A stretch of 64,000 bases of DNA, from NCBI GenBank assembly GCA_963575745.1, contig CAUYUJ010000002.1, positions 310,001-374,000 on the forward strand, given 5' to 3'. Shown in pieces: positions 1 to 55,235 of the stretch (the stretch's first letter is position 1; the number at the start of each line of letters is the position of its first letter). The DNA is from Prorocentrum cordatum. Taxonomy: Eukaryota. A program made the translations under genes and the position numbers. The notes under the pieces were generated by a model. It was not told the origin of the DNA. It worked only from the letters and a program-made list of their open reading frames with translations, and made no database searches.

Positions 1-2
1 AC

Positions 3-9465: not shown

Positions 9466-9496
<31 letters not shown>

Positions 9497-13340: not shown

Positions 13341-13447
13341 AGGAGTCGGCGGAGGAGGCGGAGGAGGAGGCGGAGGAGGAAGGAGGAGGAGGAGGAGGAG
13401 GCTGAGGCGGAGGAGGAGGCGGCGGAGGAGGAGGCGGAGGAGGAGGA
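13341..13447. repeat. (GAG)n tract, 5' flank and target of element B
   Basis: Imperfect GAG/GCG run ending in the left TSD, AGGCGGAGGAGGAGGA (13432-13447). Confidence 0.9.
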
Positions 13448-13509
13448 ACCTGTAGCCATTTTGGCTGAAGTCCGTAGTGTTTCGGCACAGGACCTGGCTG
13501 TTTGGCAAG
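13448..13509 (+). other. Dinoflagellate spliced-leader copy plus 1-2 more degenerate SL relicts
   Basis: ACCTGTAGCCATTTTGGCTGAAG matches DinoSL DCCGTAGCCATTTTGGCTCAAG closely. It is followed by TCCGTAGTGTTTCGGCACAGG and ACCTGGCTGTTTGGCAAG. Confidence 0.85.
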
Positions 13510-13637
13510 GGGGAAGGACGGCCCCCACAGTTTCTCCTCTTTGCCTGCCAGACGAGGTTGTTTCCCTTTATTTTTTTGTGAGCTCCTGCTGGAGCAACGA
13601 CGTCCCAGTCAGGTCAGCCCATGGCTACGGCTCGCCG

Positions 13638-15047
13638 ATGGCTCCTCTGTTCTTTCGTGATCCTTGGGTACGCAAGCCAACAGGTGAGCCTCAGCAGTGG
13701 TACCGCGACGGCGAGGCGCTCAGCAAAGCACCCTGCCCCCAATGCGGTTGCAAGAAAAACAAGAAACACTACTGGTTCTGCAAGCATTGTCTGCAGCCAT
13801 TGTCCTTCGTGGCCCCGTCCGCTCCGCCCGAGGCCTCGGCCGCCTGGGCCAGCAGGCCTCCCGCGGGCTCCCACCGCGCCCAGGGCGACGGGGGTGCTGC
13901 GGGCGCAGGCGCCTCCCAGTTCACCAAGGGCGGCAAAGGAGGCAAGTCCGACAACGGCAAAGGCAAGGGTCAAGCCGATGGTCTGTCCTCAGCTCCGCAG
14001 CCACCTGGCCCAGGCAAGCCCGCGGGTGAGCCCAGAATGCCTGGACTTCAACTGGGTGAATCTGGATGGCTACGCTCGGCAGGTCATCACTCCTGGACCA
14101 TCTATACCAAGGAGGAAGTGCCAGTGCTGCTCAGTTTGGCCGCGAACTTCCAGCGCATTGGCGACACGCACAGTGCCGACTTGTACAACCGTTATGCCAG
14201 CCAGCTGCAGATGGCCGCGGTGCCCACGCCCCAGACGGTGGGGGCTGCTCAGCACGCCATGCGTGAGGCGAATAAGTTCCTGGACAAAAAAGTGCGCGCT
14301 GCTGAGGCTCTCAAGCAACAGCTCCACGACGCAGGGCAGGCCGCCATCAGCGCCCTCTCCGATTTCGAGGAGTGCCAAACCAACTACCACAGGGCAGTGC
14401 GTATCCTGGCCGAGCATGTGCCTCCCGAGGGTGCGGGCGCGACAGCGGCCCCCGCAGCCGCGCCCCGCACCCACGGCCTCAGCCTGGAACGCCTGCTGGA
14501 CGAGCACGCCCCTGTCGAGATCTTCGCCGACGACGACCTGTTCGGTTTGGAGGCCGAGGGCGTCGAGCTCTCCGAACACGAGCGCGAAGAGGTGGCTCGG
14601 CGCAAGGCGGAGGTCGAAGACACCATCAAGAGGGCAGTGGCGGAGTCCTTTAGCCAGGTCAAGCAGAGGGCCAAGGAGCTGGTCGACGAGCAGCGCGCCT
14701 TCCGTGCCCGCATGCAGCTCAAGCGTCGCAAGTTCGGCGTCGACGACGAGGGCGACTGCGACGCTGCTAGAGGTGGCGCGCCAGCCACCCCTGGCACGGC
14801 CGCGGCTGCTATCCCCGCGGCAGCCGAGGCCCCAGCGGCCTCTCCTGCCACCGCCCCAGGCCCGAGGGCACCCTCGGCCCCATCGGCTGCCGCAGTGGCC
14901 CAGGCCTGCGGCATCGCCCAGGATTCTACCGTTGAGAAGCGCCCTGTGGATGCGTCGGACTCTGCTGGGCACAGGTTGCGGTTCGACATGGCCCTTGGAG
15001 CTTCAAGAAATTCAGTCGAACCAGTTCTTTCTCAGCCAGGACTTTAG
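13638..15047 (+). CDS. Element B ORF1: RanBP2-like zinc finger, Gly/Lys-rich segment, coiled coil
   Basis: CPQCGCKKNKKHYWFCKHC (N-x6-C-x2-C), KGGKGGK, and the heptad-rich AMREANKFLDKKVRAAEALKQQLHD. First in-frame ATG is at 13638. Confidence 0.85.
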   Translation: MAPLFFRDPWVRKPTGEPQQWYRDGEALSKAPCPQCGCKKNKKHYWFCKHCLQPLSFVAPSAPPEASAAWASRPPAGSHRAQGDGGAAGAGASQFTKGGKGGKSDNGKGKGQADGLSSAPQPPGPGKPAGEPRMPGLQLGESGWLRSAGHHSWTIYTKEEVPVLLSLAANFQRIGDTHSADLYNRYASQLQMAAVPTPQTVGAAQHAMREANKFLDKKVRAAEALKQQLHDAGQAAISALSDFEECQTNYHRAVRILAEHVPPEGAGATAAPAAAPRTHGLSLERLLDEHAPVEIFADDDLFGLEAEGVELSEHEREEVARRKAEVEDTIKRAVAESFSQVKQRAKELVDEQRAFRARMQLKRRKFGVDDEGDCDAARGGAPATPGTAAAAIPAAAEAPAASPATAPGPRAPSAPSAAAVAQACGIAQDSTVEKRPVDASDSAGHRLRFDMALGASRNSVEPVLSQPGL

Positions 15048-15053
15048 CATATC

Positions 15054-15520
15054 ATGGCAGTGGGCAACTACGTTCGGGACTTCGATTTCGACGTCTCCGA
15101 CATGGTCGCCACACTCACCTGCCATGAGACCGAAGAGACCCCCCCCCCAGACAAAACCCTAGGTATGCCAGCGTCCGCGAGGCGCTGTCACCGCCTAGAG
15201 GGACCCTGGGGCAGGGAATCGGCGCGAGCATGGCAGGCAGAGGGCGCCACATGTTCGCGGCACGGCTTGCCTCGCGATACCTCTTCCACGGGCACTGCCA
15301 CACTAGGTTGGGGGCAGCCGGAAATTGCCCCGAGTTTCTCAAGCTGCGCACGCATGATGTCAGCATCATCATGGTTTCAGTTTCGCCTTCCTGCTCAGCT
15401 ACCCTGTCATCCTGTCCAGTCGCCGTCGGCAGGGGCGGCGCAGCCATCATCTACTACGACAGCCGTTTCAGCATCGGCGTCGCGAACTCCCGCTTGCACA
15501 GGCCCCCGACCGTGCAGTGA
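15054..15520 (+). pseudogene. Probable extra ~155-aa ORF in element B between ORF1 and ORF2, frameshifted at a C-run near 15140-15147
   Basis: GC3-rich codons read MAVGNYVRDFDFDVSDMVATL in one frame, then ...RYASVREAL...AIIYYDSRFSIGVANSRLHRPPTVQ* in the other. No recognisable domain. Confidence 0.45.
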
Positions 15521-18500
15521 GTCTGGTGGCGCGAGTGAGCAGGATGCCAGCACGCCTGGCGCTCGCACCAAACCCACTCCTCCTTCCTCGTCAGAGTTGA
15601 AGCGCGTGGTGTTCGACACGGCCAATACTACGTCCTGGGGATCTCTCAAAACATACTTGCAGGACGAGGCCCAGGGGGCCATCGTGTTCCTCCAGGACTT
15701 CAGCTTCGGGGAGCCGCCGTGCGAGGGGGTCAACCAGCTGAAGAGCATAGGGTGGAAATCTATCGTCAACCCCAGTGTCCCCACCCTGGCAGGGGGACTC
15801 AGCAGCGGTGCAGGAATTGCGGTTCGTCCGCACATCCCCATTGGAGCTTTGCCACTCGCTCGCCCTTATTTTCCTCAGCCTGAGAGGGTATGCTCCGCGT
15901 GGGTCAACACGTTCGTCCCTGGAGGCCTGGCTGTCTCCTCGCTTTATTTAGATTGCAACGATCCGCTGGGCATCGACTCGTTCAGGATTTTGAATCGCAT
16001 TGGTGAAGAGATCCACCAGCTGCAGATCCCGTTCAACATTGGAGGGGATTGGACTACTCACCCATCACAGCTGCTCAACACTGGGTGGGTTGACCGTCTA
16101 GGCGGCGCAAATTTGCATTCTAGCAGACCCACTTGCCGCAAGTCGGACAAGCAGTGGAGGACCATCGATTTCTTGGTTGTCTCGCGGGGCCTCGAGTCCG
16201 CCATGAGAACGATTGATCGCAACGAGGCCAGCACCACATCGCCCCATTACGCGGTGTCGTTGGAGCTCGAAGGGGATCCATTGGAGGCCAAGGTCAGATT
16301 CTGCAAGGGCCCAAGCCGTTCCCGAAGGAGCGCCCCATGGGCCCCTACCCGACTCCCCCGTCGTGGGCTGCCTGCAGCGACATCCTCGACAGCCCCAGTG
16401 TGGCCCCTCACGATCTGGACCAGGCTTATGTTCAGTTCTGCAAGCTTTTCGAGGCGGAACTCAAGAGTGCCCACAACGTCGATTGCCTGGACCGCACCTA
16501 TTCTGGCAGGGCCAACGGGCTCAAGCTTACAGAGGTTTCAGCTGTGAGGACTTCTGAGGGTGATTATCTTGTTTCTTGTCCTGAAGGCCGTGCTTGGAGG
16601 AAGGTGGCTATTTGGTTTCTGGAGTTGGCGTGCCTGCTTAGGAAAGACTACCCCAGGGACCATCCACAGATCCTCTCGCTGGGCTCCAAGTTGGCCTCGG
16701 GCCCGAATAAGCTCCTCGAGAACCCTGAGTGGAAGCACTTGCGCGCGCATTTCCAGCTCGGCTCGATTGAGATTATCCAGTTCCTGCAGTTTGCCGCTGC
16801 GCCCATGCGCCAGGCAGAGCTGTTCGAACGGCGCTTCCGCACCAAGAGGGCCAAGCAGTGGCGGACTTGGGTTGCTAAATCTCTCGAGGGAGGAGGAGGC
16901 CTGGCGCGCCGGTTCACCAAGAAGCCTCGTGGGTTCATCCCCGACAGCCCCAAAGGGGGCCCCCCTCCCAGCCTTGAGGAGCAGATGAGGTGTCTGGAGG
17001 AGGAGTGGAAGAAGATCTGGACCCCTGCCCATCACGTTGCCAACCAGCCCGACTCCATCCAATACCTCAGCCAAGTCATTTCTCGGTCTGGAGAACAGCC
17101 TCTCGCTCAGGCGTCTCCTGAGGACATCCGTGCTGTGGCCAAGACCTTCAAGGCGCACGCGGCCGCGGGGGCAGACCGCACCAGACCGCAGGACTTTTTG
17201 CTGTTATCCGACGCAGGCTTGAAGTGCCTGGCGAGCATGTGGTTTCACAGGGAGCGCCTTGGCCATATGCCAGAGCCCCTCCATCACATCCTGCTCGCAA
17301 TGATTCCTCGCGGGGACGGTGGTCGCCGACCTATCGGAGTTCTACCAGGAAACATTCGTATATTCGGTAGGTTTTCTCGGATCGAAGCCAAGAGGTGGGA
17401 GGGGGCCCATCCTCGCGCGCGCGTATCAGTTCGGCAGCAAGGGCAAGTCATGCGAGAGGGCTATGTGGGAGCAGTCGGTTCGTCTCGAGCATGCGCACAT
17501 ATGCAAACATCAATCTGCACACGCCCTGGTTAACATGACCAAATGCTACGAAAAGGTGCCCCATTACCTCCTCGCGCGCGCGGCGAGTAAGCACGGCTTC
17601 CCAGCGCATCGGCCTAGGTTCCTGCTTGCGCTGTATCGGGGCAAGCGCTCGCTGCAGTTTGACATGCGAGTATCAGCAGATCTTTATGTCGAGCAATGGA
17701 TCCTGGCAGGCTGTTCGTTTGCCACCACTCTGGACGTGTTGGGCGGCGCTGTCCGCCTCTACCCCTGCATATCTGTCTACAATGTCGTGGGTGACGTTGC
17801 TGTAGGATCTGTGGGTAAGCGCAAGCATGTTACCCACATGGTCTTGGGAGCCACCAAGTTCATCTGTGTCCAGCTCGAGGCCTTGGGGTTCACCATCTCG
17901 CCCACCAAAGGTATCGTCGCGGGCTCGTCGGCCCAGGTCGTCCAGGTCATCCGCGTGGGGCTCTTGTTCTGGGAGTTCAAGGGCATGGGGGCCACGAAGA
18001 ACCTAGGGGTGGACGTCGCAGGGGCTCCCAGGCGCTCTACCAAGGTCCAGCAGCGACGTTGGCAATCCCTTATCCCGCGCATCAGGAGGTCCCGTGGTCT
18101 CAGGTCGACCCTCTCGAGCATGCACAGGGCCATCGAGACGGGTGGGGCCCCGGCGGCCCTTTGCGGCGCCAGGGTCACTGGCATGGCCCCGACCCAGCTG
18201 GCCTCTTTGAGAGCCATCATCGGAGATGCGGCAGTCGGCCCTGCCAGGGGCCATAGCAGAACGATCCAGTTCCTCCTCAACCAGGACCACAAGTTGGACC
18301 CAACCTACCAGGCTAATCTGCTCCCTCTAGGAATGTGGCACCAGGCGATCCAACACCGGTGGCTTCCCAGGTCCATGCTTAGTTGTTGCTGGAAGCATTA
18401 CCAGTCCTCCAACTCTGCTGGCAAACGGTCCAAGGTCCTCGGCCCAACAGGCGTCGTGCTGGCCACTCTGCCGCGTCTCGGTTGGGCGGGAGTGGGGTTC

Positions 18501-20004
18501 GACAAGTGGGACATCGGGGGCGGGATCTCTATCGACCTCGGTTCCTTTGGTAGGCACACGGTGGCCACCTTGATCGAGCAGGCCACCTACCGCCAGTTGC
18601 TGCGTCATGTATCCATCCCGAACGCGGCTGGCCAGTTATGCCCGCCTCTCATATCAGCGGTCCAAGAGGAGCTGCAGGCCTGTCGTAGTAAAGATGACGT
18701 CGGCGCCACCATCTTCCTGAGCGGAGTGGTTGCAGGAGGGTACCCGTGCCAGTTGCAGTTGTTCACTGGCCTCCGTGCGTTGAACCCCCACTGCCTCCGC
18801 TGTGGCCAGGCCCACGGGACCCCCAAGCACAGGCTCTACGAGTGCCCAGGCTTCCACCTCTTCCGTCGAGATCTCGATTTGGCCGATGTCGTTCGAGAAG
18901 GAGTCGGTTGACCCGAGCAAGATTTGTTGTGCACTAGGGCCCTTGGACCCGACCCTGGGGCCGAATGCCCCCCCTGTCCATGGCCGATTCCAGGCTCTGG
19001 CACCTCCGCCCTTCCTCGGGCCCCCTTGGCCCTCGGCTCTGCATTGACGGGTCGGGTCTGGACCAAGGGAACCCGTTTTCGGCCAGAGCTGGTTGGGTTG
19101 TTGTTGGTATGCAAGAAGTAGGGGGCTCTGACGGCAGCGTCTTCGGGCCCCTCCCCCACCCCCTTCAACGAAGCGGAGGGGGGAGATTTACGCCCTCATC
19201 ATGGCCATCCGTCTTGCTGCCCCTGGCCTCCTTATCATTTACTCGGACTATCAAGCTGTCATTGCCATTTGGACAGCTGGCCCCAACGCGGACCGCTCCC
19301 ATGTCGCTTTCGCTGAGTTGTGGGATGAGTTTTTTTTTTCTGGCCACCGACTTCGGACTCGAGAACATCGAGCTCCGTAAAATCGAGGCCCACCTTTCCT
19401 GGCAGGCGTGCTCCCGAACCTCCAAGGCGCTGTTCTGGGCTTGGTCTGGCCACACGCTCGCTGACAAGCTTGCTCAGCAATGTGCCAAGGCGCATGTTTC
19501 GAATCCTGAGCTTGTGCGCAGGCGCAAAGATAGCAGCGATTCGGTCCGTTCCGTTTGCAAACTCATTGGCGCCTTTGGTAATCATTTGTCTCATTTCAAG
19601 TTACCCGACGTCCAGCGGGTAAGGAAGGCCCGCCGCCCGACGTACAACGCCCTCCAGCTCGTCCCAGACCGTCAAGGCCACGTTCTGCAGCGAGTGGGCA
19701 AATCTTCTCGAGCGTAGGTCGTGGTCTGTCTGAGCGTGCTGTGTGTGCTATGCCATGCACGGGCCTCCCACGATTGGCCCGCCTGGCCGACAAGTCTCAT
19801 CGGCTCTGGGTCATGGGCTCCTCCCTAGTGTGGTGCTCTACGTGTGCAGCCTTCGGGAGTTCCAGGCTCCGCTTGCTCGGAGGTCCCTGCCGTGGGAACC
19901 CCCGCAACAAGGAAGGAGAGAAGACCCTGAGGCTGCTCAAGGAGGGGAAGGATCCTTCCACCAACGGAGTGGTGGGCAGGAGCTTTCGCCTCACCATCTC
20001 TTAA
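15519..20004 (+). pseudogene. pol: Element B ORF2 (APE-RT-ZnF-RNase H), several frameshifts and stops
   Basis: APE: FDTANTTSW, VFLQD, IGGDW, TIDFLVVS, SPH. RT: GGRRPIG, NMTKCYEKV, ILAGCSFAT, VVGD, NLGVDV. Zinc finger: CLRCGQAHGTPKHRLYEC. RNase H: CIDGSG, KIEAH, GHTLADKLA. C-terminus: HRLW...CSTC...C. Confidence 0.92.
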
Positions 20005-20079
20005 TTCACCCCCCCTTTTTAACCCTGGGCGTCGTGTTCCATCTGGAGGCAGACGTTCCGCAGCTTGAAGGAGCTTGAA

Positions 20080-20315
20080 AGGTGGAGGAGGAGGAGTCAG
20101 GAGGCGGAGGAGGAGGAGGAGGAGGAGGAGGAGGAGGAGGAGGAGGAGGAGGAGGAGAAGGAGGAGGAGGGAGGAGGAGGAGGCGGAGGAGACGGAGGCG
20201 GAGGAGGAGGAGGAGGAGGAGGAGGACTAGGAGGAGGAGGAGGATCCCTAGAGGATGAGGAGGAGGAGGAGGAGGAGGGAGGAGGAGGAGGAGGAGGAGG
20301 AGGAGGAGGAGGAGG
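20080..20315. repeat. (GAG)n tract, 3' flank of element B
   Basis: Long GAG run beginning with the right TSD. Confidence 0.9.
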
Positions 20316-20689: not shown

Positions 20690-22200
20690 CGTGCGTCCCC
20701 CACGCCCATTTCGGCACATCCCTCACACGCTGCGTGGCCCCATAGGGAGCTCCACCGAAACCCCCAGTGGGACCGCCCGCGCGCGTCCACCACACCCAAT
20801 TGGGTATTTTCCCGCCCGCATGCGTCCCCCACATCCAATTTGGCATTTTCACCCAGCAAGTACAGCCTTTCGTGCCCCAACAGGGAACACCACCGAAGCC
20901 CCCAGTGGGACCGCCCGCATGCGCCCCCCACACCCAAGTTGGCATTGTCACCCACCCAACACAGCGTTTCGTGGCCCTATAGGATCTCCACCGAAGGCCC
21001 AAGTGGGACCGCCCGCATGCGCCCCCCACATCCAATGTGGAATTTTCATCCAGCCGGAACAGCGTTTCGTGGCCCAGTAGGGAACCCCACCGAAGTTCCC
21101 AGTGGGAGCGCCCGTATACGTTTCCCACACCCAATTTGGCATTTTCACTCACCCAGTACAGCGCTTCGTGGCCCAATAGGGAGCTCCACCGAGCCCCCAA
21201 TGGGACCGCCCGCGTGCGTCCCCCACACCCAATTTGGCACTTTCGCAGACCAAGTACAGCGCTTCATGGCCCAATAGGGAGCCCCACCGAAGCCCCCAGT
21301 GGGACCGCCCGCATGCGTCCCCCACGCCGAATTTGCCATTTTCACCCACCCAGCACAGCGCTTCGTGGCCCAATAGGAAGCCCCCAGTGGGACCGCCCAC
21401 GTGCGTCTCCCATATCCAATTTGGCATTTTCACTCGCCCAGTAAAGCGCTTCGTGGCCCAATAGGGAGCCCCACCGAAACCCCCAGTGGGACCGCCCGCA
21501 TGCGTCCCCCACACACAACTTGGCTTTGTCACCCACCCAGTACACCGTTTCGTGGCCCCATAGGAAGCTCCACCGAATCCCCCAGTGGTACCGCCCACAT
21601 GCGTCCCCCACACCCAATGTGGCATTGTCACCCACCCAGTGCAGCGCTCCGTGGCTCCATAGGGAGCTCCACCGAAGCCCCCAATGGGACCGCCCGCATG
21701 CGCCCACCATGTCCTGTGTGGCATTTTCACCCGCCCAGTACAGCGCTTCGTGGCCCCATTGGAAACTCCACCGAAGCCCCCAGTGGGACCGCCCGTATGC
21801 GTCCCCCACAGGGAGCTCCACCGAAGCCTCCAGTGGGACCGCCCGCATGCGCTCCCCATACCCAATTTGGCACTGTCACCGTCCCAGTACAGTGCTTCCG
21901 AGGGTCTTAGGGAGCCCCACCGAAGCCCCCAGTGGGGCCGCCCGCATGCGCCCCCCACACCCAATGTGGCATTGTCACCCACCATTTCCAACGCTTCGCG
22001 GCCCCATGGGGATCTCCACCGAAGCCCCCAATGGGACCGCCCGCATGCGTCCCACACGCCTAATTTTGCATTTTCACCCACCCACTGCAACGCTTCGTGG
22101 CCTCATAGGTAGCTTCACCGATGGCCCCAGTGCTACCGCCCGCATGCGTTCCCCCCCCGCCCAGCGCAGCGCTTCGTGGCACCATAGGAAGCTTCACCGA
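20690..22200. repeat. 99-bp satellite, ~15 diverged units
   Basis: The GTGGCCC anchor recurs at 21168, 21266, 21365, 21453, 21552 and 21651, a period of 98-99 bp with one 88-bp unit. Confidence 0.95.
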
Positions 22201-28708: not shown

Positions 28709-30763
28709 AACATGATCTGCGGGCCCCATAGGGAGGGGGCTCCCGCCTAAGACTTCCTCGCCATTCACTCACAAACGAGGCTCCCGTCTGATACCTCTCC
28801 CATATTCAGGCCTCAGGAGCCCAAAAGTGACGACAGTTATAAGTTTCCGATGACCCGCTCGGATTAGTAACATGATCTGCGGGCCCCATAGGGACGGGGC
28901 TCCCGCCTGAGACTTCCTCGCAATTCATTCACAGACGAGGCTCCCGCTCGAGACTTCCTCCATATTCAGGCCTCAAGAGCCCAAACGTGACGACAGTTGC
29001 ACGTTGCGGATGACCCGCTCGGATTCGAACATGAAGTGCTGGCCCCATAGGGAGGGGGCTCCCGCCTGAGACTTCCTCACAATTCACTCACAGACGAGGC
29101 TCCCGCTCGAGACTTCCTCCATATTCAGGCCTCCAGAGCCCAAAGGTGACGACAGTTACACGTTGCGGATGACCCGCTCGGATTCGAACATGAAGTGCGG
29201 GCTCCATAGGGAAGGGGCTCCCGCCTGAGACTTCCTCGCATTCACTCACAGACGAGGCTCCCGCTCGAGACCTCCTCCATATTCAGGTCTCAAGAGCCCA
29301 AACGTGACGACAGTTGCACGTTGCGGATGACCCGCTCGGATTCAAACATGAAGTGCGGGCCCCATATGGAGGGGGTTCCCGCTTGAGATTTCCTCACAAT
29401 CCACTCACAGACGAGGCTCCCGCTCGAGACTTCCTCCGTATTCAGGTTTCAAGAGCCCAAAAGTGACGACAGTTGCACGTTGCGGATGACCCGCTCGGAT
29501 TCGAACATGAAGTGCGGGCCCCATAGGGAGGGACCTCCCGCCTGAGACTTCCTCGCAATTCACTCACAGACGAAGCTCCCGCTCGAGACTTCCTCCATAT
29601 TCAGGTCTCAAGAGCCCAAACGTGACGACAGTTGCACGTTGCGGATGACCCGCTCGGATTCGAACATGAATTGCGTGCCCCATAGGGAGGGGTTCCCGCT
29701 TCAGATTTCCTCACAATTCACTCACAGACGAGGCTCCCGCCTGATACTTCTTCCATATTCAGGCCTCAAGAGCCCAAAAATGACGACAGTTACACGTTGC
29801 GGACGACCCGCTTGGATTCGAACGTGAAGTGCGGGCCCCATAGGGAGGGGGCTCCCGCCTGAGACTTCCTCGCATTCGCTCACAGACGAGGCTCCCGCTC
29901 GAGACCTCCTTCATATTCAGGTCTCAAGAGCCCAAAAGTGACGACAGTTGCACGTTGCGGATGACCCGCTCGGATTCGAACATGAAGTGCGGGCCCCATA
30001 GGGAGGGGGCTCCCGCCTGAGACTTCATCGCAACCCACTCACAGACGAGGCTCCCGTTCGAGACTTCCTCCATATTCAGGTCTCAAGAGCCCAAAAGTGA
30101 CGACAGTTGCACGTTGCGGATGACCCGCTCGGATTCGAACATGAAGTGCGGGCCCCATAGGGAGGGGCTCCCGCCTGAGACTTCCTCGCAATTCACTCAC
30201 AGACGAGGCTCCCGCTCGATACTTCCTCCATATTCAGGTCCCAAGAGCCCAAAAGTGACGACAGTTGCACGTTGCGGATGACCCGCTCGGATTCGAACAT
30301 GAAGTGCGGGCCCCATAGGGAGGGGGCTCCCGCCTGAGACTTCCTCACAATTCACTCACAGACGACGATCGTCCAGCTCAATTCCAATACCCACAAGTCA
30401 CAGACGAGGCTCCCGCCTGATACTTCCTCCATATTCAGGCCTCAAGAGCCCAAAAGTGACGACAGTTACACGTTGCGGATGACCCGCTCGGATTCGAACA
30501 TGAACGCGGGCCCCATAGGGAGGGGGCTCCCGCCTGAGACTTCCTCGCAATTTCACTCACAGACGAAGCTCCCGCTCGAGACTTCCTCCATATTCAGGTC
30601 TCAAGAGCCCAAACGTGACGACAGTTGCACGTTGCGGATGACCCGCTCGGATTCGAACATGAAGTGCGGGCCCCATAGGGAGGGGGCTCCCGCCTGAGAC
30701 TTCCTCACAATTCACTCACAGACGAGGCTCCCGCCTGATACTTCCTCCGTATTCAGGCCTCAA
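28709..30763. repeat. 159-bp satellite, ~13 well-conserved units
   Basis: The CATG anchor of AACATGA recurs at 28711, 28871, 29030, 29189 and onward, a period of 159-160 bp. Confidence 0.97.
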
Positions 30764-36900: not shown

Positions 36901-39259
36901 GATGACGAGAACCCCAGATCCCCTCGCGTCGTCAAAAAAAACACGTCGGAAGGGCTGTCGCTACTCTAGACGCTTCGCGGAACCCCACCAGTTTCCTCGC
37001 ATTTTGCCAGTCTGCACGTTGCCCGAGCTTCCCTGGGTGCACTCAGCCTGTCAGCTTCACTGCGCGGCACAGCAGCTGCTTTGTGAGCTGGCCCGGCCGG
37101 CCTGCGGCGCGCCCAGTAGCTAATTAGGCCTGTTTCCGCGCCCCGGACAGTTTCTGACTCCGCCTGCGCCTTCGCTCGCGGACGCGACCGAAAAAAGTAA
37201 CCCCACCAGCCTTCCAGTGTGCTGACCACGACGATGACGAGAACCCCAGACCCCCTCGCGTCGTGAAAAAAACACGTCGGAAGGGCTTTCGCTATTCTAG
37301 ACGCTTCGCGTAACCCCACCAGTCGGGCCCATGCATAAAGTCCTCGGCTTCGGCCCGGGTCGTCGTTTGTCCCGACCTCTTGGTGCTGCATACTTGCACG
37401 CTGGCAGTTCGACTCAGTCTCTGTTGCCCTTGCCACCCGCTGGTCCGCCGCTGGGTCGCCGCTCGAGGCCTCGGTTAGCCGCGTTAGGCGTGGCCTGTTC
37501 CCGCTGCCTTCGCTTAATTCGTCGCTGCGTAGCCCGCTTTGACCTGACTCGCCGCCGGCGCGCTCGCCCGCGGCCGCTGGCTAAAGAGTAACCCCACCAG
37601 CCCATGCAGAAACGATGCTCAGAGGAATCACCTCGATCAGCGAAGTGGGCGAAACACAGAGGAAGGGTCCCCCAGTGGAGGCGTCTTGGAGCGTCTTGGG
37701 GCCTCTTGGCGGTCCCGGGCGCCTCTTAGAGCGTTTTGGGTGCCACGGAGAGCTGCTTGGGGCCTCTTGGGGATCTTTTGGGAGCCTCTTGTAGGCCTCT
37801 TGGGCGCCTGTTGGGGCCTCCTGGGCCTCCTGGGCGCCTCTTGGGGCCCTCTTGAAGCGCTCTTGGGAGCCTTGAGAGCGCTCTTGGAGCCCTTTTGGGC
37901 CATCTTGGAGCCATCTTGAGGCCTCGGATGGCCATCGGAAGCGAAAAGGCGAGAAAGCCAAAAACATGGAGTTTCCGAAGGTGTTGGAAGGATTTTGACC
38001 TCTTCGGGGCCTCCTGGGGGAGCTTTTTGTCCACTTGGAGCCGTCTTGGAGCGGTCTTGGGGCCTCTTTGAGCATCGTGGGAGCCATCTTGAGGCATCTT
38101 GGGTTATCTTGAACCATCCTGGAGGTCATCTTGGGCTCTCACAGGCGCTCTTGGAGTCATCTTAAGCAGTGCCCTCCCCCAAGGAGGCCAACATGTGGCA
38201 AAAACCTAGGTAACATCCATGATTTTGGCATTATCGCCGAGGTCTCTTGGAGCGTCTTGTGCGCCTCTGGGGGGCATCTTGGGGCCTCTTGGGGGTCTCT
38301 TGGGAGCCTCTTGAGGGTATCCTGGGGGCCTCTTTGGTGCCTCTTGGGGCCTCCTGGCCACCTCTTGGGGCCTTCTTGGGGCACCCTTGGGCGCCTTAGG
38401 AGCGCTCTTGGGGCCATCTCGGAGGAGATCGATCAAACAAGAGGGGAGCTTGAATTAGCCTCCCCCGCCCAAGAGGCCACAATGAGGCCAAAACCTTTTT
38501 AGTAGAACCAATAATTTTGGCTTCCTCGCCGAGGCAGTTTTAGACGCTCCGACCGCTCGCGGAACGCCCCGTCCAGGTCCAGGGGAGGGAGTACGGGGAG
38601 GGGTAAACCCCTCCCCGAAGGGGAAGAGGGAGGGGTGGAAGAGGAAACGTTTTAAACCAACTACGCCCAGAGGTCTGGTGGGATTTTCGGCCTCCGGGGG
38701 CCACTGTTGGGCCTCGGGGCCGTCAATGAGCGACGCAGGATGAAGGGCCAGTCCAGGAGAAGGGGTCCGGACCTCTGGAGGTCCCAGTTGTGAAACAAAC
38801 ACGAAGTCGGGGGTCTGGGACGAGGACGACGGCAGCGGCGGTGACAGCGGCGGCGACGACGGCCACGACGATCGCTGGCATGCGGCTCCTGTTGAGGAGA
38901 ATCGGGTGGACCTGTCGCCGGTTCTGGACTCCGTCCAGGGCGTGGCGAGGGAGGTCAGCGGCGTGAGGCCCGTGCTGGACAGGCTTCAGGCGCTGGAACT
39001 TGCGGTGGACCTCTCTCCTGTGATGGATGCCGTCTCGGAGATCTCGCGCGAGGTCGGTCTTCTGAAGCTTCAGTCGGCGAAGCTGCGGCAGAATGATGCC
39101 GAGGCTCGAGGAAGCAACGCTGCGGACACGTGCACTGTTGGAGGTCAGCGCGGATTTTTTGGATATGCGCTGTAAGCCCTTAACGGCGCCCTCTGCGCTG
39201 CCCCTGGCGCGCTCCGCGCGCCAGGAAGGGGGGTGCAGCGCAGGTCGAAAGAACTCCGC
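33587..39259 (+). repeat. Tandem segmental duplication: 33587-36497 (2911 bp) and 36498-39256
   Basis: Both copies start CGCCTGCGCCCAGGCCGGGG and end GTCGAAAGAACTC. There is CGC microhomology at the junction. Confidence 0.92.
34950..35650. repeat. Dispersed repeat built from ~11-bp CTTGGGGCCT-like units (also 37680-38415; inverted at 53530-54040)
   Basis: Recurrent (C/T)CTTGG(G/A)GCC units. The reverse-complement CCCCAAGA units occur at 53530-54040. Confidence 0.8.
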
Positions 39260-42848: not shown

Positions 42849-42886
<38 letters not shown>

Positions 42887-42978
42887 GCTAGTACTAGTAC
42901 TACTACTACTACTACTACTACTACTGCTACTACGACTACTACTACTACGACTACTACTACTACTCCTACTACTACTAT

Positions 42979-43038
<60 letters not shown>

Positions 43039-44024
43039 ACCTGTCACTACTACAATGGCGACTGTCACGACTACTATTATTAGCACTGCTACACCTGCAG
43101 CTGCTAGTGTTAATACTAGTTCTACTTTTACTACTACTCCAACTGCTACCGCTGCCTGTATTTCCACATCTACGACTACTACTGCAACTACTACTGCTAC
43201 CGCTTTCTATGACTGCTACTACTACAATTTGTTTCGAATTCCACGATGACCACTACTGCTGCTGCTGCAACTGCTACTGATGCTACTACAGCTGCGCCTA
43301 TGGCTACCACTACACTTCCTGTTTCTACGAAGCCTGCTGCTTCCACTACAACTAGTGCTTCTACGACCACAATGGCTACCAGTGGTGCCACGCCTACTGC
43401 TATTCCGAATTGTTCCACCACTTCCCCTAGTACGATTAGAGCTGCTATTACTATTGCTACTGCTGTTACTACTACTACTACTACTGCTACTACTACTGCG
43501 TCTACTGCTCTCAGTACTATTAGTATTACTACGAGATAGATGGCCCCTCCGACTATTCTGATTACTACTACGCCTGTTATAATTACATATACGGCTACAA
43601 ATGCGACGAGTGGTCCTACTACTTTCCTGTTAATACATGATTGCCACGAAGACGACGACGCCTACTATTATTGCTACTGGCACTGTTACCAGTAATGCTA
43701 CGACTATTATGCCTACTATCATTTTTAACACCACCACTTCTACGATTCTCCTGTCTTCTACGAGTACGGCTATTACTAGTACTCCGACTGTTGCTGCTGT
43801 GGATTATTACGAGCACCATGCATTCTTCATTTGTTTGCGATTTTGATTACTACATTTCATCGTACTGCGAGTAGTTCTTGTACTGCTGTTGCTGTCAAGT
43901 ACTACCAACACCATTACTACTCCGATTGCTACCACTGCTATTACTACTACTCCGACTGTTATTACTAATGTTACCATTGTTTTTTACTAGTACGACCATA
44001 TTGTTATTAATAGTATTCTTATTG

Positions 44025-44071
<47 letters not shown>

Positions 44072-44077
44072 GCTACC
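42690..44077. repeat. (TAC)n microsatellite field, 5' flank of element C
   Basis: Pure and degenerate TAC runs ending in the left TSD, TACTACTACTGCTACC (44062-44077). Confidence 0.95.
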
Positions 44078-44099
44078 TCCGTAGCCATTTTGGCTCAAG
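44078..44099 (+). other. Perfect dinoflagellate spliced leader (DinoSL) forming the 5' end of element C
   Basis: TCCGTAGCCATTTTGGCTCAAG equals DCCGTAGCCATTTTGGCTCAAG at 22/22. It is not followed by a GT donor. Confidence 0.98.
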
Positions 44100-44212
44100 C
44101 GGGCGCAAGTCACGGCGTGGCGCTGCGAGCACTCTGGGGGAGTGCTGGCGGGGCCAAAATCCACTTCAACGATTTAGAGCGATCAAGTCTGTTGCCCCAG
44201 TCCTCGCGCGCT

Positions 44213-45233
44213 ATGGCCAGCCATGGGCGCGGCGGACCCGAGGGAGCAGGGGTTGTGCTCCGCGGGCCCAAGTCACCGCTGTGGCTTTGCTCCTGCGGCT
44301 GCGCATCCAACTGGGCCAGCAGGCTCAGGTGCAGAGAGTGCGACAGGCCGTGCTCCACCAAGGTCGAGGACGCCGCCAGGACGGCTCACAAGGAGGCGAC
44401 CAAGGGCGGGCCCAGGCCGGGTAGCCACCAGCAGCCCCGTGGCGTCTGGGCGCGGCAGAAGCTGGCCCCGTGGGGGCACGACAAGCGTCAGCGCCAGGAC
44501 AGCGAGCTGGCCGCCCTTCGGCAGCAGGTCGGGGCGCTCAAGGCAGACAGCGCCAAGGCCAAGCTCACCGCCCTCAGTGACCTCAAGGAGGAGCTCCAGA
44601 AGCTGGGAGGAGGCGAGCAGGCCACGAGCTGCGTCAAGGCTGTGGAGGCCAAGTACTCCGAGCCGCCCAAGCCCAAGAGCCTCCCAGCCCTGGAGGGGCA
44701 GCGCAGGAAGCTCGAGGGCCAGCACCAGAAGGCACTCGCCAAGGTCGCAGAGCTCGAGGACCAGCGTGCCAAGCTCGACCTGCGGATCTGCGAGGCCAAA
44801 GACTCGGTCGCAGAGCTCAAGGGCAAGCTGCAGGCGGCCGACGCCGAGATCGAGTCCCGCCACGCCGCTGGCGTCCTCGGCGACGGGCTCAGGGGCTTGG
44901 CCAAGGTCCTCGAGCAGTTCAAGGCTACGGCAGTGGAGAACCAGGCAGTACTTCACGGACTCATCCAGTTGCAGGACGTCATCCAGAAGGAACAGGAGAC
45001 TCTGGAAGCAGCCGGCGACGCTGCACCTGCTGCTGGCGCTGCTGGCTGCGGCGGCGGGGACAGACACGAGGGTGTCCCTGGCAGTGCTGAGCCAGGAGGT
45101 GAGTCTGTCCCCGTCCCAGACGAGCTGGTCGACAGTCTCATGGAGGAAGCCCCAGGACGGCGAAAGCTATGAGCAGCGCCGCAAGCGCTTCAGCGACATC
45201 ATCGGGGCCCAGTTCAAGCGGCCTCGGGTTTGA
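44213..45233 (+). pseudogene. Element C ORF1: RanBP2-like zinc finger + coiled coil; probable 1-nt frameshift near 45150
   Basis: WLCSCGCASNWASRLRCREC and LEGQRRKLEGQHQKALAKVAELEDQRAKLD. The GC3-rich frame switches to QDGESYEQRRKRFSDIIGAQFKRPRV* ending at 45233. Confidence 0.8.
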
Positions 45234-48200
45234 TAGCCTGTCGCTCTACTCTGTCAATGCGAACACCGAGAAGGGCTATCGGGACTTCCTCGACTGGCTG
45301 GACGGCCTGCACAGTCTCGAAGTTGCAGGGCCGACGAGGCGGCCAGTAGCAGACATCACATTCGTGCAGGAGACGCGGGTGCGTGAATTCGGCAGAGAGA
45401 CAGTCCAGCGTTGGCATCGGAGGCGTGGTTTCGACTTCGGCCTTGCTGCGGGGCTCAGCACGGGTGACGCGCCTCAGTCCGTCTCAGGCGGGGTGGGCAT
45501 CGGTGTTCGGCAGCGGTTTGCGGTTGCCACGCTCGACGCCAAGTTCAAGCAGCCCCACCGCGTGCTCAGACGGGTGGTCAACGTAGGCGACGGGCTCGCC
45601 ATCGATCTCATGTCTGTCTACCTCCGCGACGGGGAGGGCATGAGTGAGGCCAACGCAGACATCCTATGGGACGCGGCGTCGCAGCTCAGGGTGGCGGCGC
45701 GGCCGTGGATTCTAGCTGGCGGCTTCAACATAGACCCCCTCCAGGTCGCGGCGCGGGCGGCGCCGGCTGGCGGACTCGCGCTACATACAGAAACAGCGAC
45801 CTGCAGGGCGGGGGCGCTCAACGAGGTCGGCTTCGCGATCATCTCCAACGAGCTCCAGCAGTTCGTGTTCAGCCACGGGCCCGTGGTCGAGGCCCCCATC
45901 GGGCCGCGCAGCCCCGTCCCGTTGGAAGTGCGAGGGCTGCATGCAGACGCCACGGTGCAGCAGCTACACCGCACGGCTCGGCTGCCGTTCGATCGGGCCA
46001 TCGGCTGCTTTCCATGGGCCCCGCTGCCTGCCTGGACCTGGGAGGAAGGCGCGGTCCCCCCTAGCCCGCGGGCGGCCATGCAGGAGTGGCTTCGGCACGC
46101 TGAGGGCCACCTTCTCCCGCTCTACGACCTGCGCGGCGACGAGGCTCAGAAGTTCGCTGGCAGGGCGGACGGAGTGCGCTTCGCCAACGTTTCGATTGCC
46201 GACGCCAGCCGCCGCCGTTGGGCCCAGCTCAGCTCGAATGAGACCCACGCCTGGGGTGGGCTGGTCAGCCTGTTGCAGCGCGCGGCCTTGCTGGTGGCGC
46301 GAGGGAAGGACCTACAGGGCTTGGCCAGCCTGCGCAGTCGTCTGGCTGCGACGCGCCTGGCCGACTACGACGGCAGCATGGCCCCTGTGCCCAGAGGTGG
46401 GCTGGGCGCTGCGGCTACCTCTAGCGACGCGGCCTTGAGGAGGAGGCCCATCGAGCACGCCAGGGTCCAGCGGCAGGCCAGCCAGCGCAGCGACGCCGCA
46501 GCCGCCAGGAAGCAGTGGCAGGCCTGGGCCAAAGGCGCGGCTACAGGCGGGGGGGGGGGGGGAGCTGGCCCATCGCTTCTCCAGGCCCGAGCCGCTGGCC
46601 AAGGCGACCCTCGTCACGGCGGACGAGGGCGAGGGCGACGTGCTGCCCGTCAACGGCGACGAGGCAGTGCAGCATTGCCTCAAGGAGTGGCTCCCGCTTT
46701 GGCTGGATCCTCGGCGCCGAGGAGGACTTGGGGAAGCGGCCAGCTGGGAGGTGACCGAGCCGCTGCCGAACCTCGAAGTGGGCAGCCTCAAGTACCTGCT
46801 CAAGCGGTACGGGAGGTGGGCTGGCCTGGGGTGGGACCAACTCCACCCGAGACAGCTGCTCCCTCCTGGACGAGTCCTTCCTGGCCAGGCTCCTCGAGGT
46901 GCTGGCCAGCTGGGAGGACTCGCCCGAGGCCTACTTGGACTGGCTCTCGGTCATCGTCTTCCGCGCCAAGGCTGACGGTGGCACGAGGCCTATTGCGCTC
47001 ACCTGCCTTCAGGTTCGTTTCTGGTCGGCCATGCGCGGGCCCATCGTCAGGCAATGGGAGGCGCAGCACCGCGAGGCCTGGTACATTGGCGGGGAGCTCA
47101 ACACGTGTGAGAGGGCTGGCTGGGTACACCAGACCCTCACGGCCCTGGACTATGAGACAGGCCTCAGCACGGGCGCGGCCCTGGGCGACCTGCGGAAGTT
47201 CTACGAGAACATCAGCCACCAGGAGCTCTTGGTGGAGGCGCAAGCCACGGGCTTCCCCATCAAGCTCCCCAGGGCTTGCTGCGTCACGCACTCAGGCTAC
47301 AGGGTCATCGCGGTTGACGGGGCCTGCAGCTCGCCCTTTCGAGCTACGGGCACGGTGCTTGCAGGCTGCTCCTGCGCGACGGGGATCGCCAAGCTTCTCC
47401 TTTTCAGATATTTAAAACAGGTTGCGGCCTTCTACCCCAGCGTGCGGCTGGGCAGCGTCGTCGACGACTTCGCGCTCCAGACCGTTGGCGCCACGGGCAT
47501 GGTGAAGGCAGTGCTAGGGCCCGCCACGCGCATGCTGTTGGGCTGCTTCGACGAGAAGCGGGTGCCCGTCTATTTCGGGAAGCTATGCTACCTCGCACCC
47601 GACGCGGAGGTTGCGAAGCAGCTGGAGTCGGAGTGGCCCGCCGAGGACGGCAGGGCGCAGCGTGGCAGGCTGCTAGGCAACGACGTGCACGACGGGCGCT
47701 GGAGGCGCACCGCCCTCGGGGCGCAGCGCGTCGAGGATGCGCTGGCAAGGTCTCGGCGGCTGCAGGTACTGAGGACGGCTGGCGCCAAGGTCGCCACGGT
47801 GCAGAGGGGCGGCCCCACGGCAGCCGCCACCTGGGGCTCGGCCACGACTGGCCTCGCCCCCTCGGTCCTACACGGGCTACGGGTTGCTGCAGCGCGTGGC
47901 GAGGGGCCATTTGCGCCGGGTGCATCCGTCGGCCTGCGGCTGAGGTGCTACCCTAAAGGCATCGAGAGGGACCCCGCGGTGGTGAACGCAGGCCAGGTCG
48001 TGCTGCAGTTCGGCATGGCGCCCTGGCTGGGCTACCCCACTCCGTTCGCCCTCAACGCGCTGCTGGAGATGGCCAAGCAGCGGTTCGCGACGGCGAAGCG
48101 GCCGCGGGCAACCTGCAGGGACCCCGTGGCAGCCTTTTTCCTCACCATCAGCAGGCTCGGCTGGTCCATCGAGGGCGGCAGGTACGTCACCACTGACCAG

Positions 48201-49975
48201 GGGTTGGAGGTCGACCTCTCCCCTTTGTCTCGCCGTCCTTCAGCATGGAGCTGGCAGAGGGAGCGGCCAAGAGGTGGTCCGACCGCGACGCCACCTTCAG
48301 GCTCTACTCCCATCAGAGCTCGGAGTTGTACTGGGGTTCGCTGCAGCGGCTGGGCAGGACCAAGGAGTCGCTCGGCTGGCAGCAACACCAGCGAGCGGCC
48401 CTCCACTCGGTCATCTCAGGCACGGTGCTCTCCCAGACGCGGCTCTACAAGAGAGGCATGGCCTCCGAGTGGGACTGCCTCATGTGCAGGGGCGCTCCTT
48501 GCACGCTCTGGCACAGGCTGTGCGGCTGCGACGGTCATGCGGCCTTTCGTAAGGACGAGGCCTCGCCCGAGCTCCTTCGGCACGCGGAGGTGGCACGGGC
48601 AGCAGGAGGCAACTGCGGCGAGATGTTTGGCAGGTGCCTCTTCCCGTCGCTCGACCATGTGATCCCGAGGCGCGACCCAGATGGGGATCCAGTTCGCTGG
48701 TATCGGCGCCCAGCCTCGGGGTACCTCACCGGCCTCATCTTCACCGACGGCAGCGCGGTCGGCACGCGGTGGCCAGAACTGCAGCGCGCGGGCTGGTCGC
48801 TCGTGCAGTGCGACAGACATGGGCGCCTGGTTGCTGCAGCATGGGGATGGGTGCCCCTCTCCATGGCGCCGCGGCAGGAAGCGCGGGACGGCGAGGACTA
48901 CGCATGCCACATGGCGGCCTTCCTCTGCGAGGGCCACGTCGACTTCCAGACGGACTGCACAGGGGCGGTGGACTGCGCCCTGAGGGGAGCAGCATGGGCA
49001 TGCCGCCCTGGGTCGCCGAGGGCCCACATGTGGAACGCGTTCTACGCCTCCTTCGACGGCTCACGCAGCTACACGGTCACCAAGGTACTGGCCCACGCTA
49101 CCGCTGCCGACGTTGAGGCAGACCGCACGACCTGGTGGCAGCGTGCAGGCAACAGGCTCGCTGACGAGGCTGCGAAGGAGGGTTCGAAGCTGGCGCTGAC
49201 AGACGACCAGCTGGACGTTGCCTACGGCCTCGACCTCATCGCAAGGCAGGCGATGATCTTCACGGGTAAGCTCCACGCGCGCATGGCGGATCGGAAGCAG
49301 ATCGATCACGCCAGCGACGTCATCCTGGAGTTCTCGGAGCCCGAGGCGGGCGACGAGGAGCCTGAGGCCAGCGGGGGCCACGCTGCCGAGCCCTCCTGGG
49401 TGGCGGCTGGCGCGGCGGTGGTGGCCCTAGCAGCTGCGCGGGCCTCGGCGGAGGGCGACGAGCCACCTGCAGCCCGACGACCTCGGCAGCCTTGGTCGAT
49501 CGGAGGCCACGCCATCGTCGAGCGGGCCGTCACGGGGCCTGGCACGGACGGCACCACCATGGTCCACTGCGTGAAGTGCTACGCCTATGCCCACCAGCGC
49601 ACGCAGGGCATCCTGAGGCCGCGCGGCACGGGGGCAGGACGTGAGCCACAGACTGATCGGATTCGCAGAGGGCTGTTCCCTAGCGCGAAGGGCGGCCGAG
49701 GAGCATGGCGCCTCGGGGAACAGCTTTTTCTCTCTGAGGCCTGGCAAAGGAAATTCAGCCAGAGGCTTTCGCCCCCCGCCGCCCCCGAGGCCAGCAGGGC
49801 CACGGGTAGCGGGCAGCAGGGCCCAGCTCAACGCTTGCCCCGCTCGCGAGCGCTGTTGCGTTTTGGGGTCGGGCCAGAGCAGGAGGCCGACTTCCTTTCC
49901 TGGTCGGCCAGGCAGCGTGCTGCCCGGAGGTGCGAGGGAGACCCCGACGAGCTCGAAGGGGATGCCTCCGACTAA
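45232..49975 (+). pseudogene. pol: Element C ORF2 (APE-RT-ZnF-RNase H), frameshifts near 46550, 46860 and 48235
   Basis: APE: YSVNAN, FVQETR, LAGGFN. RT: GGTRPIAL, GDLRKFYENI, VLAGCSCAT, VVDD. Zinc finger: CLMCRGAPCTLWHRLCGC. RNase H: FTDGSA, DGEDYA, TDC, KVLAH, GNRLADEAAK. C-terminus: CVKC. Confidence 0.93.
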
Positions 49976-50233
49976 GAGGGTTGGTTGGAGGCGCCCCTCT
50001 TCTTTTTCTTGCAGGTGCAGAGGCTCGTACTTTGTGTAGGCTTCTGCAGGCTTGGGGAGGCCCCAACTTAGTGGGTTGGGGCCCTTTGGCTTCTGCGGGG
50101 CTCCGACAAGGGTTCGGGGCCCGCGAGGCTCTGCTCTAGAGTGCCCCTGGCGCCCTGAGCTGGACTGGACTGTCCTTCAGGTAGGGGGTTGGGTCGGCTC
50201 GGCCAACCCCCCGCCTGCCGTGTAGCGAGGCGG

Positions 50234-51070
<837 letters not shown>

Positions 51071-55229: not shown

Positions 55230-55235
55230 AGATAC

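What the first reader, a model, noticed from the sequence alone, without database searches (positions are those of the whole stretch)
13432..50249. Microsatellite targeting with subfamily-specific triplets and 16-bp TSDs
Seen: B has (GAG)n on both sides, with TSD AGG(C/T)GGAGGAGGAGGA at 13432-13447 and 20080-20095. C has (TAC)n on both sides with a 16-bp TSD. A's 3' end abuts (TCC)n. The three ORF2s are clearly related but strongly diverged. Inference: an APE-type family has diversified its target specificity across trinucleotide repeats while keeping a ~16-nt stagger. It might also help seed or expand the very large microsatellite fields seen here. B's TSD is low-complexity, so it is weaker evidence than C's.
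Basis: partly seen in the sequence, partly recalled or inferred. Interest (0 to 1): 0.78.

Follow-up and report, generated by a model that had tools for sequence, protein, structure and literature searches.

The report
Dinoflagellate LINEs inserted in trinucleotide microsatellites
Three distantly related jumping genes of the LINE type in a dinoflagellate genome each sit inside a simple three-letter repeat, a known habit of some LINEs, but one copy per lineage cannot show that each lineage has a repeat of its own.

Summary
Three APE-RT-RNase H LINEs lie at 1-8229 (A), 13448-20079 (B) and 44078-50233 (C). B lies between (GGA)n arrays and C between (TAC)n arrays. A's inferred 3' end abuts (CTC)n.

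C's 16-bp duplication is exact and beyond chance. B's 15/16 match is not: 90 of 776 positions in the window's GGA arrays match as well.

B and C begin exactly with the dinoflagellate spliced leader, worn in B and perfect in C, so both were copied from leader-capped RNA.

The three are not subfamilies. They fall in three deep branches of a very large LINE radiation (7749 cluster representatives) and share 24-33% protein identity.

Three of three insertions in about 4% of the window argues for targeting. So does a 15-fold excess of microsatellites just upstream of leader relics in environmental contigs.

Lineage-specific triplets and a conserved 16-nt stagger rest on one copy per lineage. No further copy with flanks could be fetched, so neither is tested.

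Microsatellite-specific LINEs are known in animals (Waldo, Mino, Kibi, Koshi, Dong). This scan had already noted leader-headed LINEs in (TCC)n on other DNA of this genome.

Verdict: real, moderately interesting, and a new member of a known kind.

The parts
1..8229 (+). LINE A. The 5' end is off the window and the reading frames look intact. ORF1 tail 3-1019 (frame 3, coiled coil). ORF2 frame open 1-8139. APE about 1039-1830, RT about 3787-5334, RNase H about 5815-6273. 3' UTR 8140-8229 (end inferred).
   Evidence: open frames. Pfam RNase_H E 9.8e-8, above the cut-off; RVT_1 and Exo_endo_phos weak, below the cut-offs. (APE fold).
8230..8276 (+). (CTC)n array abutting A's inferred 3' end
13351..13447 (+). 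(GGA)n array upstream of B. Its last 16 bases (13432-13447) are the proposed 5' copy of the duplication.
13448..20079 (+). LINE B, a full-length but decayed copy. Worn spliced leader at 13448-13470 (one extra T, one C to G). ORF1 in frame 3 to 15047 (zinc finger plus coiled coil). ORF2 in pieces 15048-16547, 16217-17533, 17304-18911 and 18938-19717, with at least three frame changes. No poly(A).
20080..20315 (+). (AGG)n array downstream of B. Its first 16 bases (20080-20095) are the proposed 3' copy of the duplication (15/16, CpG to TpG).
44025..44077 (+). (CTA)17 array upstream of C. Its last 16 bases (44062-44077) are the 5' copy of the duplication.
44078..50233 (+). LINE C, a full-length but decayed copy. 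Perfect 22-nt spliced leader at 44078-44099. ORF1 (RanBP2-like zinc finger plus coiled coil) within 43991-45172. ORF2 in pieces 45103-47415, 46755-48662 and 48197-49975, with at least two frame changes. No poly(A).
   Evidence: One search shows a multi-copy family in run X1; about 80% protein identity to P0008.
50234..51070 (+). (TAC)n array downstream of C. Its first 16 bases (50234-50249) are the 3' copy of the duplication (16/16).

Best explanation
A, B and C are copies of three anciently separated lineages of the dinoflagellate LINE radiation. ORF1 carries a zinc finger and a coiled coil. ORF2 carries APE, RT, a CCHC-like knuckle and RNase H. There is no poly(A).

Proposed steps:
1. Each element was transcribed and trans-spliced, so the RNA begins with the 22-nt spliced leader.
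2. It was then inserted by target-primed reverse transcription.
3. The element's endonuclease nicked the bottom strand inside a trinucleotide array. For C the nick lay in (GTA)n, for B in (TCC)n and for A in (GAG)n, all read on the bottom strand.
4. Reverse transcription started at the unique 3' UTR end and ran to the capped 5' end.
5. The top strand was cut up to 16 bp downstream, which gave the duplication.

The choice of a microsatellite is made by the element's own proteins, and the preferred repeat or strand differs between lineages.

Shown here: the domains, the leader at the exact 5' end inside the duplication (C), the same repeat on both sides (B and C), and the deep divergence.

Inferred: the nick positions, that the endonuclease is what reads the repeat, and that the repeat is lineage-specific.
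For: - Domains and fold.
- Only two leader cores occur in the window, and both stand at the first base of B and C. The leader sequence is as printed in PMC6050394 (passage read).
- C's exact 16-bp duplication includes two variant positions.
- Three of three insertion sites lie in arrays that cover 3.3-4.25% of the window.
- In environmental contigs, 9 of 87 leader relics in non-AT-rich contigs have a microsatellite in the 30 nt upstream, against 227 of 34082 background windows (p about 8e-9).
- Unchecked notes of this scan report further leader-headed or truncated LINEs in sense-strand (TCC)n, one in (CT)n, and other site-specific LINE lineages in the same genome.
- C belongs to a multi-copy family: 708 contigs of run X1 lay on it at 80% identity or more.
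Against: - There is one copy per lineage, so specificity for a given triplet is untested.
- B's duplication is not above chance.
- A's ends are not defined. Its 5' end is off the window and its 3' end is inferred.
- The window is unusually rich in microsatellites and was chosen after the fact.
- The junction flanks of other C copies were not resolved by the laid contigs.
- None of the 127 environmental leader loci contained an RT or APE of this radiation. The environmental enrichment therefore says nothing about lineages, and the cargos are unidentified (0 of 11 with a Pfam family).
Confidence: 0.55

Rival explanations
1. Homing guided by the RNA tail. Transcripts of a copy that sits in an array read through into the downstream repeat. 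That repeat tail then anneals to the nicked strand of any array of the same kind and primes reverse transcription. Specificity would be inherited from the flank of the source copy and not written in the endonuclease. It could switch whenever a copy lands in another repeat.
For: - There is no poly(A) and no internal 3' repeat, so each 3' end runs straight into the repeat.
- The 3' array is the longer one in 2 of 2 full-length copies.
- The first nine bases of C's 3' duplication copy are pure (TAC)3 and could come from such a tail, which would leave a true duplication of 7-16 bp.
- Use of read-through target sequence is known for R1 and R2 elements (recalled, not checked here).
Against: - C's variant bases TGCTACC are duplicated, so at least 7 bp of true duplication exist without any tail.
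- No transcript data were obtained.
- If the leader relics beside microsatellites in environmental DNA are ordinary mRNAs moved in trans, they would have no such tail. Their cargo is unidentified.
Confidence: 0.2
2. No motif specificity. The LINE machinery of dinoflagellates prefers, or is tolerated in, simple repeats or unusual DNA in general, or copies persist there because insertions are harmless. Which triplet each of the three copies hit would then be an accident of a repeat-rich region.
For: - Repeat types next to environmental leader relics are very diverse: GT, CT, AT, CAT, GGGT, CCGA and others.
- The window has many arrays of GGA/TCC and TAC.
- Passive accumulation near CA repeats is the accepted reading for Drosophila Waldo-A and Waldo-B (PMC3812793, passage read).
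Against: - Both breakpoints of B and C lie inside the arrays, not merely near them.
- Unchecked notes report repeated TCC insertions in one fixed orientation elsewhere in the genome.
- Diversity of repeats across unrelated organisms is also what many specific lineages would give.
Confidence: 0.2
3. The repeats are made by the elements, as 3' tails added or expanded by the RT, and are not targets.
For: The longer arrays lie on the 3' side. Some LINEs do carry simple-repeat tails (established knowledge, recalled).
Against: B and C have the same repeat upstream of the spliced leader as well, at 97 and 52 bp. C's duplication carries array variants that must predate the insertion.
Confidence: 0.05

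Closest known systems
Microsatellite-specific LINEs of animals: Waldo (ACAY)n, Mino (AC)n, Kibi (TC)n, Koshi (TTC)n and Dong (TAA)n (Kojima and Fujiwara 2003 and 2004, as summarised in PMC3812793, passage read; Togen (TG)n and some HERO families in PMC4640811, passages read)
   Same: LINEs found inside a simple repeat with the repeat on both sides. Related lineages use different repeats. The endonuclease is thought to choose the site.
   Different: The host is a dinoflagellate. The targets are (TAC)n and the two strands of (GGA/TCC)n, which are not in the lists I read. The elements begin with a trans-spliced leader. Specificity is not shown here by multiple copies. Clade relationship to R1, Tx1 or R4 was not tested.
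SymbioLINE-type LINEs of Symbiodiniaceae (de Mendoza et al. 2018, PMC5890265, passages read)
   Same: Dinoflagellate LINEs whose ORF2 has Exo_endo_phos, RVT_1 and RNase_H. They have target-site duplications, conserved UTRs and no poly(A) tail.
   Different: No DNMT is present in ORF1 here (no Pfam hit). That paper has no occurrence of 'microsatellite', 'target site' or 'spliced leader'.
DinoSL-tagged retrogenes, the 'recycled' cDNAs (Slamovits and Keeling 2008 and Song et al. 2017, as described in PMC6050394, passages read)
   Same: A DNA copy of the 22-nt leader stands at the 5' end of a retroposed sequence.
   Different: Here the retroposed RNA is the LINE itself, the likely source of the reverse transcriptase. 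The copy is bounded by a duplication inside a microsatellite.
Tx1L and other site-specific APE LINEs (recalled). Unchecked notes of this scan describe LINEs of this genome that target a Helitron hairpin.
   Same: Target-specific APE-type LINEs, with several specificities in one genome.
   Different: Those have a unique sequence or structure as target, whereas here it is a simple repeat. Nothing was tested here.

Membership tests
APE-type non-LTR retrotransposon (LINE) | Endonuclease of the exonuclease-endonuclease-phosphatase (APE) fold, N-terminal to the RT | tested here: met
   Pfam Exo_endo_phos is weak only (E 0.005, 17 bits against a cut-off of 24.5). The AlphaFold model of A residues from nt 1039-1830 has pLDDT 88.8. 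The best Foldseek matches are AP endonucleases, human L1 EN and TRAS1 EN at E about 1e-10 to 4e-9.
APE-type non-LTR retrotransposon (LINE) | Reverse transcriptase domain | tested here: met
   Pfam RVT_1 is below its cut-off (A E 9.6e-4; C E 2.1e-3). The region is conserved among A, B and C with an invariant VVDD-type motif. Its profile finds 7749 representatives at E <= 1e-3.
APE-type non-LTR retrotransposon (LINE) | Target-site duplication around a copy that has no terminal repeats | tested here: met
   C: 16/16, unique among 1109 array positions. B: inconclusive (90 of 776 positions match as well). No long terminal direct or inverted repeats appear in the self-comparison (the top 80 of the filtered rows were seen).
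Microsatellite-specific LINE (Waldo, Mino, Kibi, Koshi or Dong type of behaviour) | The same simple repeat on both sides of a full-length copy | tested here: met
   B lies between GGA arrays. C lies between TAC arrays. For A only the 3' side is in the window.
Microsatellite-specific LINE (Waldo, Mino, Kibi, Koshi or Dong type of behaviour) | Many independent copies of one family in the same repeat, in the same orientation and at the same position | not testable with these tools
   No whole genome is held. No further fragments lie in the window. Scans gave no relatives with flanks. The laid contigs did not resolve the junctions.
Microsatellite-specific LINE (Waldo, Mino, Kibi, Koshi or Dong type of behaviour) | Phylogenetic place in the R1, Tx1 or R4 clades that hold the known examples | not tested
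   No reference sequences of those clades were at hand. A sequence search of solved structures gave 0 matches.
DinoSL-tagged retrocopy | The 22-nt leader DCCGTAGCCATTTTGGCTCAAG at the exact 5' end, inside the duplication | tested here: met
   C: 22 of 22 at 44078-44099, directly after the duplication copy. B: the leader with one inserted T and one substitution at 13448-13470. The leader sequence is taken from PMC6050394.
SymbioLINE-Dnmt (de Mendoza 2018) | Cytosine methyltransferase in ORF1 | tested here: not met
   No DNMT family appears in any ORF1 translation. ORF1 is instead a zinc finger plus a coiled coil.

The most novel reading that the evidence does not exclude
The very large dinoflagellate LINE radiation has divided the genome's simple repeats among its lineages, by repeat type and by strand. 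It does so through a heritable 'flank memory': read-through repeat tails on leader-capped RNAs guide each lineage back to arrays like the one its source copy sits in. The same machinery drops leader-tagged mRNA copies at microsatellites and lengthens the arrays on the 3' side. Retrogene birth, LINE spread and the growth of microsatellite fields in these giant genomes would then be linked.
Probability: 0.15. Interest if true: 0.7.

Novelty: new member of a known kind. Interest (0 to 1): 0.42.

Why it matters
Dinoflagellate genomes are huge, rich in repeats and full of retroposed, leader-tagged genes, yet where their LINEs insert has hardly been described. I found no paper on it in four searches (listings only). 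The P. cordatum genome paper has no occurrence of 'microsatellite' or 'retrotranspos'.

If distinct LINE lineages home to distinct simple repeats, three things would follow. It would explain how such genomes tolerate massive LINE activity. It would show where new retrogenes land. It would also offer endonucleases with new repeat specificities.

As it stands, the window adds two new candidate targets, (TAC)n and the GGA strand of (GGA/TCC)n, to a pattern this scan had already seen for (TCC)n.

Tried and rejected
- Whole genome: none is held.
- Other fragments of A, B or C in the window: none.
- The search for related loci with the A/B/C RT alignment: metagenome contigs gave 545 pattern hits with 0 confirmed. 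Viral contigs gave 57 pattern hits with 0 confirmed. Prokaryote genome contigs gave 1 weak hit (28% over 85 residues, in a bacterial bin), which I did not study.
The second metagenome scan was then spent on the leader pattern.
- None of its 127 loci has a protein hit to any of the 161 stored LINE proteins.
- A search for duplications around environmental leader relics gave nothing usable, because the contigs are too short.
- Sequencing runs: no RNA holder is listed. Laying four runs on C showed a multi-copy family, but the junctions were not resolved. The 5' flank was skipped as a repeat, and the listed loose ends at 50234 are plain microsatellite contigs.
- Word-index protein searches gave few relatives: 3 for A's RT and 4 for C's ORF1. 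All four ORF1 hits start at their own methionine, so they carry no flank.
- A check of the 150 representatives for leader-encoded peptides or repeat-encoded runs at their ends was uninformative.
- Sequence search of solved structures: 0 matches.
- Look-ups of earlier findings by sequence: nothing.
- Pfam on 19 other ORFs of the window: nothing relevant.
- Two translations of mine were out of frame and are to be ignored: window 44214-45172 (protein 3) and 'C_orf1'.
- Weak blastp hints that some environmental cargos (L066, L069, L004) are LINE ORF1s (E 7e-5 to 0.004 against a seven-sequence database) are too weak to use.
Full report
**What the window is.** It is GC-rich DNA (57-74% in most 2-kb bins) with many satellites and microsatellites. 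No whole genome is held for it. The nearest named proteins are 'unnamed protein product, partial [Prorocentrum cordatum]' (P0004; P0008). P0008 is about 80% identical to element C over 557 aligned residues. Notes of this scan on the same genome also call it a dinoflagellate.

**The three elements.** A tblastn search with the long open frame of A (1-8139) finds only two other related regions, B and C, at 24-33% identity. The reverse searches agree and find no further fragments.

- A has a Pfam RNase_H match above the cut-off, and weak RVT_1 and Exo_endo_phos matches below theirs.
- An AlphaFold model of A's N-terminal ORF2 domain, built on a 28-row alignment, has mean pLDDT 88.8. Its best structural matches are AP endonucleases, the human L1 endonuclease and the TRAS1 endonuclease (E about 1e-10 to 4e-9). 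These are therefore APE-type LINEs.
- ORF1 of C and its four database relatives carries a RanBP2-like zinc finger followed by a coiled coil. B's ORF1 has a similar finger.
- A's frames are open. Its 5' end lies off the window.
- B and C are decayed, with at least three and at least two frame changes in ORF2 respectively.
- None of the three has a poly(A) tail.

B and C begin exactly with the dinoflagellate spliced leader. C starts TCCGTAGCCATTTTGGCTCAAG at 44078-44099, a perfect 22-mer as printed in PMC6050394 (passage read). B starts with the same leader bearing one extra T and one substitution, at 13448-13470. The leader core occurs only twice in the window, against 0.08 expected. Full-length copies were therefore made from trans-spliced RNA. 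This scan had already reported such LINEs on other DNA of the same genome.

**The flanks.**
- B lies between (GGA)n 13351-13447 and (AGG)n 20080-20315.
- C lies between (CTA)17 44025-44076 and (TAC)n 50234-51070.
- A's ORF2 stops at 8139, and a (CTC)n array starts at 8230.

A and B therefore use the same double-stranded repeat in opposite orientation.

**The duplications.** C's 16-base duplication is exact and contains two departures from the pure repeat. The 16-mer is found at 2 of 1109 positions of the window's TAC arrays, namely its own two copies, and 16 is the only length from 4 to 30 with no mismatch. The first nine bases of the 3' copy are pure (TAC)3 and could in principle come from a repeat tail on the RNA. 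The true duplication is thus between 7 and 16 bp.

B's 15/16 match is not informative. Ninety of 776 positions in GGA arrays match its 16-mer within one mismatch, and lengths 4, 7 and 10 fit as well. In its favour, the single mismatch is a CpG to TpG change at a shared variant position.

**Is the association more than chance?** Trinucleotide arrays make up 3.3% to 4.25% (my sum of the period-3 rows) of the window. Three of three insertion sites in them has a chance of roughly 4e-5 to 8e-5, with the caveat that the case was picked after the fact.

- Of 130 unique sites with at least 31 nt upstream, I dropped 4 that follow another leader relic.
- I set apart 39 sites in AT-rich contigs.
- Of the remaining 87, 9 have a microsatellite in the 30 nt upstream, against 227 of 34082 background windows in the same contigs (0.67%; binomial p about 8e-9).
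- None of the 39 AT-rich sites has one.
- The repeat types are diverse (GT, CT, AT, CAT, GGGT, CCGA and others).

It says nothing about lineages, because no locus holds an RT or APE of this radiation. The cargos are also unidentified: 0 of the 11 I scanned has a Pfam family.

**Are these 'subfamilies'?** No. A profile of the three RT regions finds 7749 cluster representatives at E <= 1e-3 and 796 at E <= 1e-30. I built a tree from the 137 of the 152 domain-bearing proteins whose match covers at least 380 profile positions, dropping the other 15, and added A, B and C. In that tree the three fall in three separate deep clades. Their nearest representatives come from environmental assemblies. C's family is multi-copy in one sequencing run. 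708 contigs lay on it: 72 at 99% or more, 178 at 95-99%, 248 at 90-95% and 210 below 90%.

**What could not be done.** I obtained no additional copy of any of the three lineages with its flanks. 'One triplet per lineage' and 'a conserved 16-nt stagger' therefore remain hypotheses resting on one copy each. Unchecked notes of this scan report:
- several LINE copies in sense-strand (TCC)n (e1-7625186, e1-7625585, e1-7629228);
- one lineage in (CT)n (e1-7694526);
- lineages that target a transposon hairpin (e1-7628293, e1-7630060, e1-7693943);
- a 14-bp duplication for another leader-headed LINE (e1-7626471).

These fit a radiation with many target specificities. They argue against a fixed 16-bp stagger.

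**Mechanism.** The most likely reading (0.55) is ordinary target-primed reverse transcription in which the element's own proteins choose a simple repeat, with different lineages preferring different repeats or strands. The rivals are:
- guidance by read-through repeat tails on the RNA (0.2);
- a general preference for, or survival in, simple repeats without motif specificity (0.2);
- repeats made by the elements (0.05), which is largely excluded because B and C also have the repeat upstream of the leader.

**Comparison with the known.** Microsatellite-specific LINEs are established in animals: Waldo, Mino, Kibi, Koshi and Dong (PMC3812793, passage read), and Togen and some HERO families (PMC4640811, passages read). 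Dinoflagellate LINEs with duplications and without poly(A) are described for Symbiodiniaceae (PMC5890265, passages read). I found nothing in print on microsatellite targeting by dinoflagellate LINEs:
- searches (listings only);
- no occurrence of the terms in PMC5890265 or PMC10666404;
- only two reference-list mentions of microsatellites in the review PMC11453091.

Supplementary files were not consulted.

**Verdict.** The finding is a real but ordinary-in-kind case: a new member of a known kind, with new candidate targets.

Noticed in passing
L014, L029, L038, L049 and others; IMG/VR loci L129 onward: The perfect dinoflagellate spliced leader is encoded in DNA at many sites of very AT-rich contigs. 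In IMG/VR it occurs in 119 stretches, and 67 of the 80 listed rows are contigs labelled as giant-virus bins (GVMAG). The 60 nt upstream average 12% GC. The base before CCG is A at 132 of 138 sites. A TGAWAWWT box lies 30-55 nt upstream at 76 of 138 sites. L014 carries an intronless RNA polymerase Rpb2 gene. This looks like giant viruses of dinoflagellates that write the host leader at the head of their own genes. A leader in an RNA virus of Symbiodinium is cited in PMC9651163. I found no paper on the giant-virus case (listings only).
   Followed up: partly
window 54945-55232 and 62826-63114: A dispersed repeat of about 290 bp (81.7% identity). One copy is preceded by a TCC-like run, and the other is followed by (TCC)n at 63126-63174. 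It may be a short non-autonomous element that uses the same targets.
   Followed up: no
window 15045-15050: In B, ORF1 and the first ORF2 piece are in the same frame, separated by a single stop codon (ORFs 13341-15047 and 15048-16547). In A, ORF1 (frame 3) ends at 1019, while the ORF2 frame is open far upstream and has no nearby ATG. How ORF2 is translated is unclear.
   Followed up: no
window about 2900-4000 and 7485-7678: A's ORF2 contains internal tandem duplications. Two units of about 190 residues lie between APE and RT, and 96-bp repeats lie in the C-terminal tail.
   Followed up: no
window 20812-22155, 28709-30764, 33587-34317 and 36498-37230: A 99-bp satellite, a 159-bp satellite, and a 733-bp direct repeat at 98.9% identity.
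   Followed up: no
window 44078-44099: The leader ends in AG. A relic leader at the head of a LINE could therefore itself serve as the trans-splice acceptor, so that each round of transcription replaces it with a fresh, perfect leader. This is an idea only.
   Followed up: no
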